Source: Octopus vulgaris (Eukaryota). Taken from it: a DNA stretch of 64,000 nt. Numbering within the stretch: position 1 is the stretch's first letter; every line of letters starts with the position of its first letter. Below are positions 15,580-50,100 of the stretch, one piece after another. The notes under the pieces were generated by a model. The model did not search any database and had not been told where the DNA came from. It saw only the letters and a list, made by a program, of their open reading frames with translations. The stretch spans positions 127,534,001-127,598,000 of the forward strand of contig OX597819.1 of NCBI GenBank assembly GCA_951406725.2, given 5' to 3'. A program made the position numbers and the translations under genes.

Positions 15580-16887
15580 TTTCTTTATTAGCCACACAGG
15601 GCTGCACACAGATAGAACAAATTACAAGGTAGAGCTTTTCTTTTGAAGGCTTAAAAAAAAAAAAGGAAAGGGGAGTTTCGATCAAAAGGGATCGTAAAAG
15701 GAGAGAAAGAGGACAAAAAAAGGGGGGTTAAAAAAAGAGGGGGAGAGGAAAAAAATTGATCAATAGGGATCGTTATCACAGAAATGTCAATATGAAGTGT
15801 AAAGGGGAGGACAGGTGAGGTTTACCCGTGGAAAGAAAAGCCTACGGAAAAGACCACGGTAACCTCGGTCAATGGAGTCACATGTTATATTTCTTTTTTT
15901 TTTTTTTTTTGCAAATAAGCAACTCTCTGGGTTCATAGGACTATGCTCAAGGTGGCTTCGTCATTCATACGTGCCATTCTTGCTACATTCACCCATCTCT
16001 TTTTAAAACATTCGCTAGACAAAACTTGCCTCTCTACTCTCACTTTCCTTTTCAAGTGGTACTTGAAGAAGTTGATGAGAGATTGACCAGAGAGGAAAGT
16101 GTTTGTCTCCAATCCTTTCAGACGCGTCCACCAGATACATTCTTTCGCCATAGCCACAAGGATGATGAAAATAGCTCTTCCTTCCCGTTTGAAGGAAGGA
16201 GGCGTGACAATATTGACGATAGACTCAGCTGATAAACCGACTCGTCCCACACGTGACAGCAGTTGTTCGACATAAGCCCACAGGTCGGAAATTGTTGGAC
16301 ACTGCACGAGTGCGTGCAGAACGGTTTCGTCGCTCTGACCGCATCTCGAGCAGGTCGGCCCCGTGTTTCTCGAGCCGTGTCTGTAGAGTTTATCCCGAAC
16401 GGGTAGCGCTTCTCGGTAGCACTGCCAGGCCAGGGATCTCTGGAAGTTGTCCATGGGCCCTGGCCCGAAAGTCGTCCTGAACAGGCGGGTCAGGTACTCC
16501 TCGTCGACGTCCAGGTTCGCCCCGAGCTCGTCGTCGTACCTCCCCTCCACTAAACCCCTATAGAATGCTTTGGTTGTGTTGAAGTCACTCATGGTCGACC
16601 CAGGACGGCAGAGTTGCTTGAGAGCAACGCGACACTCGCGGTGCCATTCGCCCTTCCTCGGCCTCTTTTTGATCCACGACTGCAGTTCGGTCATGGAGAT
16701 GAGCTGCGGGAAAGCGTGTCTTCACAAACGGCGACCACACTTGTTCACCGTCGTCTACATAGAGCCAGAGATGTCGCAGTCTCAGCGCGTGTCTGCGCAT
16801 CATCAACCACGGCATGCCCAGCCCTCCTTTTAACGGGTGTTGACAGCAAATGGATCGCCTGACCATCGGGACGCATCCTTTCCACAA
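15580..16887 (-). mobile_element. 5'-truncated L1/Tx1-clade LINE (ORF2 C-terminus with zinc-binding zf-RVT-like domain, plus 3' UTR)
   Basis: LWKGCVPMVRRSICCQHPLKGGLGMP (post-RT GGLG motif) frameshifts into ORF 15933-16694 with W...REALPVRDKL...CSRCGQSDETVLHALVQCP...W. The 3' UTR ends with AATAAA at ~15585-15590 on the minus strand. Confidence 0.88.
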
Positions 16888-41147: not shown

Positions 41148-41556
41148 AGGCGAGCTGGCAGAAACGTGAGCACGCCGGGCGAAATGCGTAGCCGTATTTC
41201 GTCTGCCGTTACGTTCTGAGTTCAAATTCCGCCGAGGTCGACTTTGCCTTTCATCCTTTCGGGGTCGATAAATTAAGTACCAGTTACGCACTGGGGTCGA
41301 TAATCAACTTAATCCATTTGTCTGTCCTTGTTTGTCCCCTCTGTATTTAGCCCCTTGTGGGTAGTAAAGAAATAGGTATTTCGTCTGCCGTTACGTTCTG
41401 AGTTCAAATTCCGCCGAGGTCGACTTTGCCTTTCATCCTTTCGGGGTCGATAAATTAAGTACCAGTTACGCACTGGGGTCGATAATCGACTTAATCCATT
41501 TGTCTGTCCTTGTTTGTCCCCTCTGTGTTTAGCCCCTTGTGGGTAGTAAAGAAATA
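41148..41556 (+). mobile_element. SINE family A, partial tandem dimer
   Basis: A full unit is followed by a second unit restarting at GTATTTCGTCTGCC (41377). Flanking repeat TATTTACATTTG.TTCAGC at 41121-41139 / 41559-41577. Confidence 0.9.
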
Positions 41557-42002
41557 GATATTTACATTTGTTTCAGCAGTATTCAGCTGAAACAAATAGA
41601 ATATATAATATATTATTATATATACTATATATAAATAATAATATATATAGTATATTATTATATACTATATAATAATATATAGTATATATTATTATATATG
41701 ATATATAACTATAGACTAACTTGCCTAGCAGACATATTCTTTTCAGGATTCTGAATAGCATATAGAACGAAAATTCTAATAAGACGTACAGCTATAATGC
41801 GAAGAATTCCATTGCATTGATATAAAGATACACCTTCATTAGAAAGTTGCATATATTATATAATAGTACAGCAATCTTTTGGGTGTTCATATGGAAGTGA
41901 AACGATTATAAATTTATACAATAAATGAATTTGTTCAATCAAATCTCTTTGTAAATACATATATATATACCTACATACATACTTGCTTGCACATATACGT
42001 AC

Positions 42003-42079
<77 letters not shown>

Positions 42080-42147
42080 CATACAAACACGCACATATAT
42101 ATATATATATATATATCATATATATATATGCACACATATATATATAT

Positions 42148-42252
42148 CGTAAAGTCAATACCACCATGACTGATATCCAATCTACAGTGGAGAAGGCTAG
42201 CCACTGGATTTGGTTAAAAAGAGACGATGAGCGATGGCTAGAAATTCCGTAA
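42148..42252 (+). pseudogene. Extreme C-terminus of an RLE-type non-LTR retrotransposon ORF (HERO-like)
   Basis: TDIQSTVEKASHWIWLKRDDERW* resembles the EKAS.W(I/L)WLKR...W terminus I recall from HERO-clade LINEs; not searched. Confidence 0.5.
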
Positions 42253-42538
42253 GCGGAAACCACACACGGACCATATTGAGTTCATCTCACTAACCAGCAA
42301 AATACATTTGCTGATTTCGAAAATCTGTTCGAAAGCAATAACAATTCTCTAAAAGGGATATAGACAGTAACTGCTCGATAACATAAGGGACCCTCTGATA
42401 TGGCTAGGGACAGCAGGTGGTGGGGGTGTTACTGTTGCATTTAGCCCAGGCGAACATCGACGTCACCAGAAAGGCTCGACACCGTCACGGTGCCCTTAAC
42501 TTGCAAAGGGAGGTAATTCCCCGATGAAGCGGAAACCA

Positions 42539-42584
42539 CACACGGACCATGGTTTCAAGGTGTATTGCCTATCATCGGCGTGTG
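42539..42584 (-). ncRNA. Type I hammerhead motif, copy 1
   Basis: Exact reverse complement of 43121-43166. Confidence 0.7.
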
Positions 42585-42896
42585 GTAGGCCTCCGCTTCC
42601 TCGACGAATTCTCACTCTGCAGGATTTTCTTATATAGATTTTCAAGCAAAATACATTTGCTGATTTCGAAAATCTGTTCGAAAGCAATAACAATTCTCTA
42701 AAAGGGATATAGACAGTAACTGCTCGATAACATAAGGGACTAAAGCCATCTGAATATGGCTAGGGACAGGGCAGGGTGGTGGGTGTTACTGTTGCATTTA
42801 GCCCCAGGCGAACATCGACGTCACCAGAAAGGCTCGACACCGTCACGGTGCCCTTAACTTGCAAAGGGAGGTAATTCCCCGATGAAGCGGAAACCA

Positions 42897-42942
42897 CACA
42901 CGGACCATGGTTTCAAGGTGTATTGCCTATCATCGGCGTGTG
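42897..42942 (-). ncRNA. Type I hammerhead motif, copy 2
   Basis: Exact reverse complement of 43121-43166. Confidence 0.7.
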
Positions 42943-43120
42943 GTAGGCCTCCGCTTCCTCGACGAATTCTCACTCTGCAGGATTTTCTTATATAGATTTT
43001 CAAGCAAAATACATTTGCTGATTTCGAAAATCTGTTCGAAATCAGCAAATGTATTTTGCTTGAAAATCTATATAAGAAAATCCTGCAGAGTGAGAATTCG
43101 TCGAGGAAGCGGAGGCCTAC

Positions 43121-43166
43121 CACACGCCGATGATAGGCAATACACCTTGAAACCATGGTCCGTGTG
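43121..43166 (+). ncRNA. Type I hammerhead motif, copy 3
   Basis: CACACG-CCGAUGA-UAGG-CAAUACA-CCUU-GAAA-CCAUGG-UC-CGUGUG. Stem I is extended by GAAGCGGAGGCC/GGUUUCCGCUUC past a UAC/U internal loop. Confidence 0.7.
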
Positions 43167-43480
43167 TGGTTTCCGCTTCATCGGGGAATTACCTCCCTTT
43201 GCAAGTTAAGGGCACCGTGACGGTGTCGAGCCTTTCTGGTGACGTCGATGTTCGCCTGGGGCTAAATGCAACAGTAACACCCCCACCACCCTGCCCTGTC
43301 CCTAGCCATATTCAGATGGCTTTAGTCCCTTATGTTATCGAGCAGTTACTGTCTATATCCCTTTTAGAGAATTGTTATTGCTTTCGAACAGATTTTCGAA
43401 ATCAGCAAATGTATTTTGCTTGAAAATCTATATAAGAAAATCCTGCAGAGTGAGAATTCGTCGAGGAAGCGGAGGCCTAC

Positions 43481-43526
43481 CACACGCCGATGATAGGCAA
43501 TACACCTTGAAACCATGGTCCGTGTG
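43481..43526 (+). ncRNA. Type I hammerhead motif, copy 4
   Basis: Identical to 43121-43166, 360 bp downstream. Confidence 0.7.
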
Positions 43527-43694
43527 TGGTTTCCGCTTCATCGGGGAATTACCTCCCTTTGCAGGTTAAGGGCACCGTGACGGTGTCGAGCCTTTCTGGT
43601 GACGTCGATGTTCGCCTGGGGCTAAATGCAACAGTAACACCCCCACCACCCTGCCCTGTCCCTAGCCATATTCAGATGGCTTTAGTCCCTTATG

Positions 43695-43760
<66 letters not shown>

Positions 43761-43778
43761 ATACATACAAACACGCAC

Positions 43779-43809
<31 letters not shown>

Positions 43810-43943
43810 TATATATAGTATATGTATAGTATGCGTGTATATATATTTATATATATATATATTTACACGCTTAATATACATATACTATATATACTACATA
43901 TACGTGTGCATATATATATGCCATATATATATACATACATACA

Positions 43944-47095: not shown

Positions 47096-47194
47096 CTTAG
47101 TAATAAATATAACCTATGAAGTTTTCTCCCCATGCTGCCACTTGATTTGATCGGTATTTAAAATAACGATCTTATCCTTATTTATATAGAAATT

Positions 47195-50100
47195 TACATG
47201 TATATATTTATATGTATATACACATGTATATATGGGTACAGGACGTCAAAAAACATACACAATCTATCATGGCGACTAGTGCCGGACAGAAGGTTCAAAC
47301 ACGAGGAGGAAAGTAGGAGAGATAACAAGGTAAAGATGACCCCCAACACAAAGGTGCGTGTGTGTATAAGAGAATATGTAAGTGAGTGTTGGGTGGGAAG
47401 AAGGAGGAGGGAGGAGGAGAGAGGAGAGAAGGAGAGTGAGGGAGCAGAGAGAAAGAGAGTAAGGGAGAAGAAGGAGAGAGAGTAGAGATGAAAAGATGTA
47501 GCAGTGAAGAGAAGTAGGAGTCGGGGAGGAGAGTTGAGCCCGAATGGCGGAAAAGAGCGAAGAGAGAAGAATAATCCCTGTTCACGGCGCAAACGAGAGT
47601 CCGGATGGCTTCTGTGCAAGGACATTCCGAACACAGACAGGTATTGCAAGGAGTGACCGGTGGAGTGGAAATGGCGTGAGACTGGGTTGTCATTGCCGAG
47701 GCGGATGTCTCGGAGGTGTTCCGCGAACCGGTCAGCCAAGCAGCGTCCCGTTTGTCCGATGTACAGGGAATGGCAGAGAGAGCAGGAGATGCAATAGATG
47801 ATATTGCTGGAGGTACAGGTGAAGGAGTCGAGGATGCGATAGGGTAGATGATGGGTGCCGGTGAGGAGGGTGGTGTTGGAGAGGTAAGGGCAAGTGCGGC
47901 AGCGTGGTCGGAAGTAGGGGAACGAGCCAGGTTGGGAGGTAGGTTTGGGGAAGAAGCTGTGGACCAAGAGGTCTCGTAGGTTGCGGGCTCGTTTGAAGGA
48001 GGGGAGGGGTCGGTCAGGGAATATGTGTGAAGTGGACGGATCGGACTGGAGATGCCGAAAAGCTTGGAGAATGATGAGTTGGAGAGGTAGAGTAGTGGGG
48101 TGGTAGGTGAGGGGAAAAGGGAGGCGGGAGACTGCAGGGCGGGTTTGGGGGAGAGAGCAGATGCACGGTCCATGGAACGTGCTCTGGCAAGGGCGGTGTG
48201 GATAGTGGTGAGGGGATATCCACGTAGGATGAGGTGGTGAGCCATGAGTTGAGACTGAGTCTCAAAGTCATGGTCATCACTACAGAGCCTGCGTAGACAG
48301 AGGAATTGGGGATGGAAAGCTTGGTGTGTTTGGGGTGGGAGGAGGAGAAGTTTAGGTATGAGTGTGAGTCTGTGTGTTTGTAGTGGGTGGAGGTGGTAAG
48401 AGTGGAGTGATGAATGCTGACCGAAATGTCAAGAAAGGAGACAGAGGTGTCAGAGATAGTGCAAGAGAAGTGGCGAATAGAATGGAAAGATTTGACGAAA
48501 GAGAGGAAGGAGTCTAGATATTCGCGGGAGAGTGACGTGGCACCGATACAGTCGTCAATATAACGGCCATATAGTTCGGGAGTGGGACCAGTGAAACTAG
48601 AGAATATTTGGGCCTCGACATAGCCAACGAACAGGTTTGCATAGTTGGGGCCCATTCTCGTTCCCATGGCCACTCCCTAGAGATCTCTGGTAGAACTCGC
48701 TCACGAACAAGAAGCAGTTGCGTGAGAGGACAAGTTCGGCCAGACGAACGAGTGTGGAGGTGTTGGATTGGGGATTGGGTCGTAGGTCCAAGAAGTGTTT
48801 AAGTGCACGCAGCTTCTCGTGGTGAGGGATCACAGTGTAGAGGCTCTGGATGTCCATTGTAAAGAGAAGTTTGGAGGAGTCAGGAGGGAAGGAGAAAGAG
48901 TTGAAAAGACGAAGAGCATGATTGGTGTCATGGATGTGAGAAGGAAGAGAAGCCACTAGGGGGCAAGGACACAGTCGAGATATTTGGAGATAAGCTCGGT
49001 GGGGCGGCCAGGGTTCTTGGGTTTGTGGATTTTGGGGAGAAAGTAAATGGTGGGGTGCGGGGGATTCGGGCAATGAGGTTGGATGCGGTGTGGGGGAAAC
49101 GGGAGGACGAGATGAGGTCGTGGATGGTAGAGGAGGTCGTCTGTTGGTAGCTGGGCGTGGGGTAAGAGGACAGAGGGCAGTAGAAGGAGGTGTCAAGGAG
49201 TTGGTGGAGAGTTTCGGCCCTGTAGAGGTCCACGCGCCATACCACCACAGCTCTACCCTTGTCGGCCGGTTTAATAACGATGTTAGTGCGCCGTCGGAGG
49301 GAACGAAGAGCCGAGAGTTCGGCTGGGGAGATGTTGAGACGACGGTGGCGCCTGGAGAAGTTGAACTGTTCCAAAGCGCGCTGACAGGCACCCACAAAAA
49401 GATCCACTGCTTGGAACTGGCCAGGAGCAGCAGGCGTCCACTGGGATGGTCGGCGGCCCAGGTCAGTGAAGCAGTCCTCCTCGTTTGATGAGGGTGGAGT
49501 GTCGCGGAAAAGCGCACACAATCTGACGCGGCGCACAAAGCTTTGGATATCAGCACGAGTCTGACATTCCTTACAGGATGGAGTGAGGGGGATGAAACGC
49601 AGACCCCTACTGAGGATGGAGTGCTCTGCCACAGAGAGGGGAAGATCTAGGGGAATGGTAACAACAGACTAAAGTGGAGAAGGGGTGGATGGAATAGAAG
49701 TAGGAGGGGTGGATATGGTGGAGGTAGAAAGGTGGTAGGACTGGTAGAAGGCTGGGTGGTAGGGAGTGGGGATGTGTGAGTGGGGTTTGGAGGGACAGTG
49801 AGGTTGGGTGTGGGTGGGTGGAGCCTACCAGGGAGGGAGAAGGTTAGTGGAGGAGTTGGGGTAGTTGCATAGGGTGTGATGGAATGGAGGAGTGAATGGA
49901 GTTTATGAAGTTTGGTGTTGGTAAGAAATTGATGAAAGAGATGATTTAAATGAATTATATAACGCAACGTGTTGTGAGCATGGGAGGGTGGCAGAGAGGA
50001 GAAAAAGATGGAAAAAGCAGGAGGGAGAAGGCGGTCGATGGTATGTATTTTAGAGAAATTTGAGCGAATGGTGGCACGCATAAGGCGGTAAGAAGTGGTA

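What the first reader, a model, noticed from the sequence alone, without database searches (positions are those of the whole stretch)
42296..43698. Tandem 360-bp hammerhead-ribozyme units: candidate cephalopod retrozyme / circular-RNA system
Seen: about four copies of a ~360-bp non-coding unit. Each contains CACACG-CCGAUGA-UAGGCAAUACACCUU-GAAA-CCAUGG-UC-CGUGUG, a type I HHR topology with a GUC cleavage triplet and a tiny palindromic stem III. Stem I extends to ~30 bp past an internal loop (GAAGCGGAGGCC/GGUUUCCGCUUC, then AAUUC/GAAUU). The rest of the unit is hairpin-rich (GCACCG-TGA-CGGTGT, AGCCAT-ATTCAG-ATGGCT, AGCAAA-TGTAT-TTTGCT), and copies are near-identical, so the array is young. Established: metazoan non-LTR retrozymes and PLE pseudo-LTRs are short tandem repeats with minimal type I HHRs. 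Their palindromic stem III allows cleavage as dimers, giving unit-length linear and circular RNAs thought to be copied by PLE RT. Inference: plus-strand transcription would be cut after 43160 and 43520, releasing a 360-nt monomer that could circularise. Caveat: the core has U4C and stem II closes U-U, so activity may be reduced.
Basis: partly seen in the sequence, partly recalled or inferred. Interest (0 to 1): 0.9.

Follow-up and report, generated by a model that had tools for sequence, protein, structure and literature searches.

The report
Ribozyme repeat hijacking Penelope retrotransposon machinery
A 360-base non-coding repeat carrying a predicted self-cleaving hammerhead ribozyme has recently spread to hundreds of places in this animal genome as two back-to-back arms of repeats with fixed ends, a pattern that likely records copying of a small RNA circle by a Penelope-type retrotransposon enzyme.

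Summary
The four hammerhead (HHR) motifs lie in two inverted arms, two per strand, not head-to-tail. The family is young and dispersed: 810 exact HHR copies genome-wide. Three older sister families share stem III, and stem I covaries between them, which supports the fold. U4C is fixed in the family. Cleavage and RNA were not tested.

The insertions carry the Penelope-like (PLE) signature: (TA)n flanks, inverted arms, and two fixed ends 44 nt apart. Among 86 loci, all 54 two-armed insertions with both ends at these sites use one end per arm. Arms run up to about 15 laps. Multi-site haplotypes are fixed in every lap of both arms, which suggests rolling-circle copying of a monomer circle; some mosaics point to multimeric templates. 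Intact Neptune-like PLEs with the same end geometry exist, but no sequence-matched partner was found. The window copy is atypical: a captured LINE fragment and a long flank duplication.

Verdict: a non-LTR retrozyme whose insertions give genomic evidence for PLE mobilisation. The scan had no note on this sequence; a ribozyme-free analogue was noted in another genome (e1-7881736).

The parts
42006..42147 (.). Left copy of duplicated target flank ((TA)n(TG)n-rich, about 140 bp)
   Evidence: local alignment to 43699-43820
42148..42298 (+). Captured piece of the ORF end / 3' UTR of a high-copy REL-type non-LTR retrotransposon (HERO-like; clade name recalled), interrupted at 42244-42274 by 7 unassigned bases and 24 nt of the unit; it replaces the usual long (342) end
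42296..43044 (-). Left arm: about 2.1 laps of the unit, antisense to the + strand
42539..42584 (-). Type I HHR motif, predicted cut between 42545 and 42544
42897..42942 (-). Type I HHR motif, predicted cut between 42903 and 42902
43019..43044 (.). Inversion junction between the arms, inside the TTCGAA-containing hairpin (unit 339-360)
43019..43698 (+). Right arm: about 1.9 laps, ending at the short fixed end (unit position 298)
43121..43166 (+). Type I HHR motif (C4 core, U.U at the base of stem II, palindromic stem III ACCAUGGU), predicted cut after 43160
43161..43520 (+). Predicted 360-nt monomer / circle between two cleavage sites
43271..43352 (+). Helix ACAGTAAC/GTTACTGT (43271-43278 with 43345-43352) enclosing the short priming site; a similar helix is seen in several sister-family copies; candidate RT-binding element (inferred)
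43339..43382 (+). 44-nt 'tail' between the two fixed ends (unit 299-342)
43481..43526 (+). Type I HHR motif, predicted cut after 43520
43699..43820 (.). Right copy of duplicated target flank, starting with (TA)n

Best explanation
This is one insertion of a young, non-coding, hammerhead-bearing retroelement family (a non-LTR retrozyme) that sits at hundreds of (TA)n sites as two inverted multi-lap arms and is likely copied in trans by a Penelope-like (Neptune-type) reverse transcriptase-endonuclease from a predicted 360-nt RNA circle. Steps: (1, inferred) tandem units are transcribed outward from inside an arm. (2, inferred) Two HHRs pair through palindromic stem III, cleave after GUC, and the 360-nt monomer is ligated into a circle. 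(3, ends shown, enzyme inferred) The PLE protein cuts both strands of a (TA)n target; one strand primes at unit position about 296-298 and the other at about 342. (4, multi-lap arms shown, rolling circle inferred) Each primer copies from under one to about 15 laps. (5, shown) The two cDNAs are joined head-to-head at variable points with short microhomology. In the window copy the long-end priming appears to have failed, and a LINE fragment and a long flank duplication were left instead (inferred).
For: 810 exact HHR copies, control 0. 54 of 54 two-armed insertions with both ends at canonical sites have one short and one long end, with no short/short or long/long, among 86 distinct loci; 125 of 137 canonical ends abut (TA)n. 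A 297 A>G variant is in every pass except the outermost base of the 298 arm in L147, L158 and L159, so the last bases come from the target primer. Junction overlap is >=3 nt in 20 of 52 loci against about 5% at random. In those 52 loci, arms cross the cleavage site 242 times, and 82 of 104 arms are longer than a linear monomer allows. 51 variants are fixed in all passes of both arms (up to 24/24), including nested haplotypes and 4 seen in one locus only; L150 alternates G-A-G-A-G, as a dimer circle would give. Stem I, not part of the search pattern, covaries across four families: 5 of 6 pairs change on both sides, covariation score 0.40, 0/500 shuffles, slid controls <=0.16. Intact 781-aa RT+GIY-YIG PLEs with (TA)n ends and their own tail exist in this genome, and a second PLE family has a C4, U.U-closed HHR. 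PLE RT primes at two adjacent internal sites that define the tail and extends both target strands in vitro (PMC11167929).
Against: There are no RNA data and no cleavage assay. No PLE with sequence similarity to the unit was found among 45 GIY-YIG loci, drawn from 150 scored of 6136 candidates; one lead (family X4 beside a PLE) proved to be a separate insertion. The core is U4C in the family (canonical variant pattern: 0 matches), and U4C lowers activity in vitro (PMC3088659). The active fold is predicted 7.4 kcal/mol above the MFE, stem II probability 0.08. Arm 5' ends show no excess at the cleavage site: 5 truncations among 11 matches against 10 among 20 at a control site, and 3 of 104. 29 variants occur in some passes only (several are alignment artefacts); some are mirrored between arms (L029, L112, L096), which needs a multi-unit template. 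HHR mutants did not impair insertion by the anole PLE in vitro (PMC11167929), and 8 of 9 Xenopus retrozyme dimers did not cleave (bioRxiv 2026.07.22.740005). The sister-family covariation rests on about four lineages, so the shuffle count overstates it.
Confidence: 0.62

Rival explanations
1. PLE machinery mobilises the element, but the template is the uncleaved multi-unit linear transcript of existing arrays; the HHR is weak or dispensable, and arrays are homogenised and lengthened afterwards by unequal exchange.
For: Mirrored single-lap variants (L029, L112, L096) and block duplications (L013, L102); no footprint at the cleavage site; U4C and weak predicted folding; unprocessed RNA was the dominant substrate for the anole PLE.
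Against: New mutations are repeatedly fixed across all laps of both inverted arms in several nested haplotypes, which needs a single-unit bottleneck followed by re-amplification each time. HHR stems are kept by compensatory change across four families.
Confidence: 0.25
2. The element is mobilised by the abundant REL-type (HERO-like) LINE or another non-LTR RT by twin priming, not by a PLE.
For: A piece of that LINE is fused to the window copy; several LINE copies also end in microsatellites.
Against: The fusion is seen in 1 of 86 loci examined; the unit shares no 3' sequence with the LINE; two fixed internal ends with a tail and an inverted arm are PLE hallmarks and are shared with PLEs in this genome.
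Confidence: 0.06
3. A DNA-level palindromic or satellite element (MITE- or foldback-like, or spread by extrachromosomal DNA circles) with an incidental HHR-like motif.
For: Each insertion is a giant inverted repeat in TA; no Rfam hit.
Against: The two ends are never identical (0 of 54), the centres and arm lengths vary freely, the terminal bases are target-derived, and the HHR stems covary.
Confidence: 0.05

Closest known systems
Metazoan non-LTR retrozymes (coral, mussel, axolotl; PMC7229834; bioRxiv 10.64898/2026.07.22.740005)
   Same: Non-coding tandem unit of about 350 bp, GC under 50%, one type I HHR per unit, dispersed short arrays, coexisting PLEs. The mussel unit is 350-390 bp, and an axolotl family has U.U at the base of helix II.
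   Different: Here insertions are two inverted arms with fixed ends 44 nt apart in (TA)n; 'inverted' occurs 0 times in the main text of PMC7229834 and only in a reference title of the 2026 preprint. The core is C4. No pLTR homologue was found, whereas 24 of 57 Xenopus families match known elements, nearly all PLEs. RNA is not shown here.
Endonuclease-bearing Penelope-like elements (Neptune, Poseidon, Naiad; PMC8557442, PMC11167929, PMC4209133)
   Same: Partial tandems, inverted 5'-truncated arm, optional 30-40 bp tail, (TA)n/AT-rich targeting, HHR upstream of two internal priming sites.
   Different: No ORF; 360 bp only; many laps per arm; the tail is 44 nt; the two priming sites are used strictly one per arm, whereas the anole PLE showed no strand difference in start site in vitro.
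Non-autonomous Chlamys PLEs such as MRC1 (PMC8557442)
   Same: [quoted passage not shown]
   Different: Those share 3' sequence with their autonomous partner, and most Chlamys lack a canonical HHR; this family has an HHR and no detected shared sequence.

Membership tests
Type I hammerhead ribozyme | Core C3-U4-G5-A6-N7-G8-A9, GAAA, UH in type I order | tested here: inconclusive
   All present except U4, which is C; U4C is a known natural variant with reduced activity; both C4 and U4 occur in sister families
Type I hammerhead ribozyme | Stems I-III maintained by covariation | tested here: met
   Stem I 5/6 pairs and stem II 3/4 pairs with two-sided change; stem III invariant, but it was fixed by the search pattern; 2 of 30 loci (L118, L139) were left out of the alignment
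Type I hammerhead ribozyme | Rfam hammerhead model match | tested here: not met
Type I hammerhead ribozyme | Self-cleavage after GUC | not testable with these tools
   needs an in vitro assay; genomic 5' ends show no excess at the site
Non-LTR retrozyme | Non-coding tandem unit of 150-450 bp, GC under 50%, with an HHR in each unit | tested here: met
   360 bp, 46.9% GC, HHR at 360-bp spacing
Non-LTR retrozyme | Dispersed multi-copy arrays, dimers to multimers | tested here: met
   810 HHR copies; arrays on many chromosomes, up to 23 HHR copies in one listed array
Non-LTR retrozyme | Expressed as linear and circular monomer RNA | not tested
PLE-mobilised element | Two internal 3' ends defining a tail, inverted arm, AT-rich/(TA)n target | tested here: met
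PLE-mobilised element | Sequence shared with an autonomous PLE pLTR | tested here: not met
   no significant match in 45 GIY-YIG loci; sampling was partial (150 of 6136 candidates scored)
Autonomous PLE | RT + GIY-YIG ORF | tested here: not met
   no such ORF in the unit or array

The most novel reading that the evidence does not exclude
These insertions are a direct genomic record of the PLE integration reaction run on a parasitic ribozyme RNA circle: an asymmetric RT-endonuclease complex primes each cut target strand at a different, fixed site (one per arm, 54 of 54) and rolls round a 360-nt circle. At least five non-coding families in this genome share the same palindromic stem III, so they could cleave one another in trans. 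The tails and inverted arms of all PLEs would then come from this concerted twin priming.
Probability: 0.4. Interest if true: 0.8.

Novelty: new variant of a known kind. Interest (0 to 1): 0.6.

Why it matters
Whether animal retrozymes are mobilised by PLE reverse transcriptase, and through a circle, has been argued from co-occurrence and pLTR homology. How PLEs make tandem/inverted/tail structures is described as unresolved (PMC8557442). This family is young, short and present in hundreds of near-identical insertions whose ends and lap-by-lap variants read out the reaction. The same genome holds intact candidate enzymes, so it supplies a 360-nt substrate and sharp predictions for an in vitro test. 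It is a mobile parasite; nothing here points to a host function.

Tried and rejected
Rfam scans found no hammerhead; the miRNA hits below gathering score reflect the inverted repeat. Search for a canonical-U4 version of the unit: 0 matches. Search for the partner PLE: no homology to 45 GIY-YIG loci; flanks of 19 single-arm loci and 5 junction inserts held ordinary genomic repeats, with no PLE arm; a U3-A8 core pattern gave 18 matches (control 5), mostly an unrelated repeat; family X4 looked like a pLTR in L227/L240 but is an insertion in (TA)n next to a PLE with its own 3' end. Three arms ending at unit 122 on chromosome C1 suggested in vivo cleavage, but the genome-wide pattern test did not beat a control site; the control lies nearer the priming site, so it is imperfect. 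An antisense HHR from the CCGAUGA on the other strand was rejected by inspection (no stem II); the matching UCAUCGG does not block the core in the predicted ensemble. A fold-back origin of the second arm was rejected: junctions are symmetric in only 3 of 52 loci, and either arm can be the longer (27 vs 25). No tRNA gene in the window and no Pol III A/B box on the sense strand; the bacterial promoter scan is uninformative for an animal. Expression could not be examined.

Full report
OBSERVATION. The hammerhead-like motif, the extended stem I and the named hairpins are in the sequence. The layout is not four head-to-tail copies. BLAST and TRF show a left arm antisense to the + strand (42296-43044) and a right arm in sense (43019-43698), two HHR motifs each, meeting in a TTCGAA hairpin. 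The predicted monomer 43161-43520 folds better than shuffles (z -4.0 linear; -4.8 circular). Rfam has no hammerhead match. Unit positions below count from window 43041.

FAMILY. An exact 24-base HHR pattern has 810 matches in the 2.8-Gb genome, control 0. Chromosome C1 has 83 of them in 18 loci, which scales to roughly 180-220 loci (my estimate). I analysed 86 distinct loci: 40 best-scoring, 20 taken mainly by position and 26 from two truncation patterns, after removing 6 duplicates. Most are 97-99.5% identical to the window unit; some older ones are 85-95%.

INSERTION ANATOMY. Outer ends fall at unit 298 (60 ends) or 342 (56 ends); my classes were 284-298 and 338-344. All 54 two-armed insertions with both ends in these classes have one of each, and none has two of the same. 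Eight have one non-standard end (the window among them), 19 are single-armed, and 5 run off the fetched DNA. 125 of 137 canonical ends abut (TA)n; two non-TA sites show 11-13 bp duplications (L109, L194). In three loci carrying 297 A>G, the variant is missing only from the outermost base of the 298 arm, so those bases are target-derived and the outer ends are the priming ends. Inner junctions vary freely, with >=3 nt overlap in 20 of 52 loci against about 5% expected (2 of the 54 left out for a split locus or an insert). Either arm may be longer; the longest are 5.2-5.3 kb. This matches PLE hallmarks: an inverted 5'-truncated copy, a 30-40 bp tail at one end, and (TA)n bias (PMC8557442, passages). 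It also matches the in vitro finding that a PLE protein cuts and extends both strands and primes at two adjacent internal sites bounding the tail (PMC11167929, main text read). The strict one-site-per-arm rule is what I add; that paper saw no strand difference.

TEMPLATE. In 52 loci, arms cross the predicted cleavage site 242 times, and 82 of 104 arms exceed what a cut linear monomer allows, so the template is a circle or an uncut multimer. At sites passed three or more times, 51 variants are fixed in every pass of both arms (up to 24/24), 4 in every pass of one arm, 133 occur once and 29 in some passes. Fixed variants form nested haplotypes (168T; +48T; +11T/51A/297G/319T; +14C). Repeated fixation of new mutations across whole inverted arrays is most simply a single-unit bottleneck followed by rolling-circle copying (inference); L150 alternates like a dimer circle. 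Against a pure monomer circle, L029, L112 and L096 have variants mirrored between arms, and L001, L099 and L105 differ in the first lap of one arm, so multi-unit templates or template switches also occur. Assembly artefacts were not excluded. 5' ends are not enriched at the cleavage site (5 of 11 matches against 10 of 20 at a control); this is expected for a ligated circle and also for an inactive ribozyme.

RIBOZYME. A pattern fixing only the core and stem III, and excluding the unit's stem II, gave 74 matches against 1 control. The first 30 loci fall mostly into three older families of about 350 bp, homologous to the unit downstream of the HHR, several in tandem or inverted form. Stem I reads CTCACA/TGTGAG, CCAGTA/TACTGG, CCTGTG/CACAGG and, in the unit, CACACG/CGTGTG. 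On 29 rows (28 of the 30 loci plus the window; L118 dropped as an unpaired chance hit, L139 as a junction of the unit itself) 88% of cells pair, score 0.40, 0/500 shuffles, slid controls <=0.16; the two pair-count measures were not significant (96/500 and 122/500), and the signal rests on about four lineages. The subfamily-fixed changes inside the HHR are at the free N7 position and an A-U to G-U pair. C4 dominates the family (322 of 323 passes; U4 pattern 0), occurs in two sister families and in one PLE family, and U4C is reported to reduce activity yet allow viroid infectivity (PMC3088659, passage). The active fold is predicted 7.4 kcal/mol above the MFE; stem III is unstable as a hairpin (+2.2) but stable as a palindromic duplex (-11.2), in line with dimer cleavage (PMC4209133, results and discussion read). 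A helix ACAGTAAC/GTTACTGT encloses the short end, and a similar one recurs at the same spacing in some sister copies (11 loci printed, not all pairing).

PARTNER. The genome holds many RT+GIY-YIG elements (6136 candidates, 150 scored). One family has many intact 781-aa ORFs with a CxxC linker (Neptune-like by the description in PMC8557442), short and long ends in (TA)n about 38 nt apart, and a U3-A8 HHR-like motif; another has a C4, U.U-closed HHR and a tail of about 30 nt. None shares sequence with the unit, and further leads failed. The partner is inferred from geometry only.

THE WINDOW COPY is atypical. Its right end is the standard 298 end. Its left end carries 42148-42298 of a high-copy REL-type LINE 3' end (Pfam zf-RVT below cut-off; HERO label recalled), interrupted by 24 nt of the unit and joined to the arm by an AGC microhomology, all inside a flank duplication of about 120-140 bp. 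This looks like template jumping during repair of a failed second priming (inference). It carries a private variant in all passes (334G) and another in 3 of 4. Both arms point outward, so an internal promoter would give sense-only RNA, while read-through from outside would form a long hairpin (inference); no promoter was identified.

COMPARISON. It meets the sequence-level definition of a metazoan non-LTR retrozyme (PMC7229834, passages and discussion; bioRxiv 2026.07.22.740005, introduction to discussion read). Those papers propose PLE mobilisation from co-occurrence and pLTR homology and do not describe inverted arms in their main text. Eight literature searches found no description of a cephalopod retrozyme or of this insertion rule; the library lacks most subscription journals, and supplements were not read. 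Earlier scan notes: nothing by sequence; one ribozyme-free tandem element with PLE-type ends in another genome, not checked.

VERDICT. A real, young retrozyme family with an unusually clean PLE insertion signature. Known class, new variant; interest 0.6.

Noticed in passing
window 47194-49700 (-): Frameshifted Penelope-like element (RT and GIY-YIG pieces, about 27-40% identical to the intact families); no match to the unit
   Followed up: partly
window 15933-16721 (-): 262-aa open frame that looks like the C-terminal part of a non-LTR retrotransposon ORF2 (by eye)
   Followed up: no
window 41194-41563: Two 182-bp tandem copies, 98% identical, of a common SINE-like repeat
   Followed up: no
L116-L145: Three older ~350-bp HHR repeat families (65-85% identity between copies), homologous to the unit, with the same stem III and apparently similar short and long ends
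   Followed up: partly
L215-L239, L240:1741-2835: A further family (X4; 3345 candidates, period about 460 bp) with the same stem III and GUC site, a long AT-rich stem II, inverted arms and (TA)n ends
   Followed up: partly
L084:768-4468: Young PLE family with an extra 479-aa upstream ORF (no Pfam hit) overlapping the 781-aa RT-EN ORF; two-ORF layout also in L240
   Followed up: partly
L092:2321-5483, L094: Autonomous PLE family with a C4-core HHR, an inverted arm and a ~30-nt tail on one end only, the same geometry as the unit
   Followed up: partly
L001, L099, L105, L021: The first-copied lap of one arm differs from all later laps; unexplained, may reflect a template switch after priming
   Followed up: partly
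L027:1168-1322, L162:1859-2122: Foreign DNA of 155 and 264 bp captured at or near the inversion junction, source unidentified
   Followed up: partly
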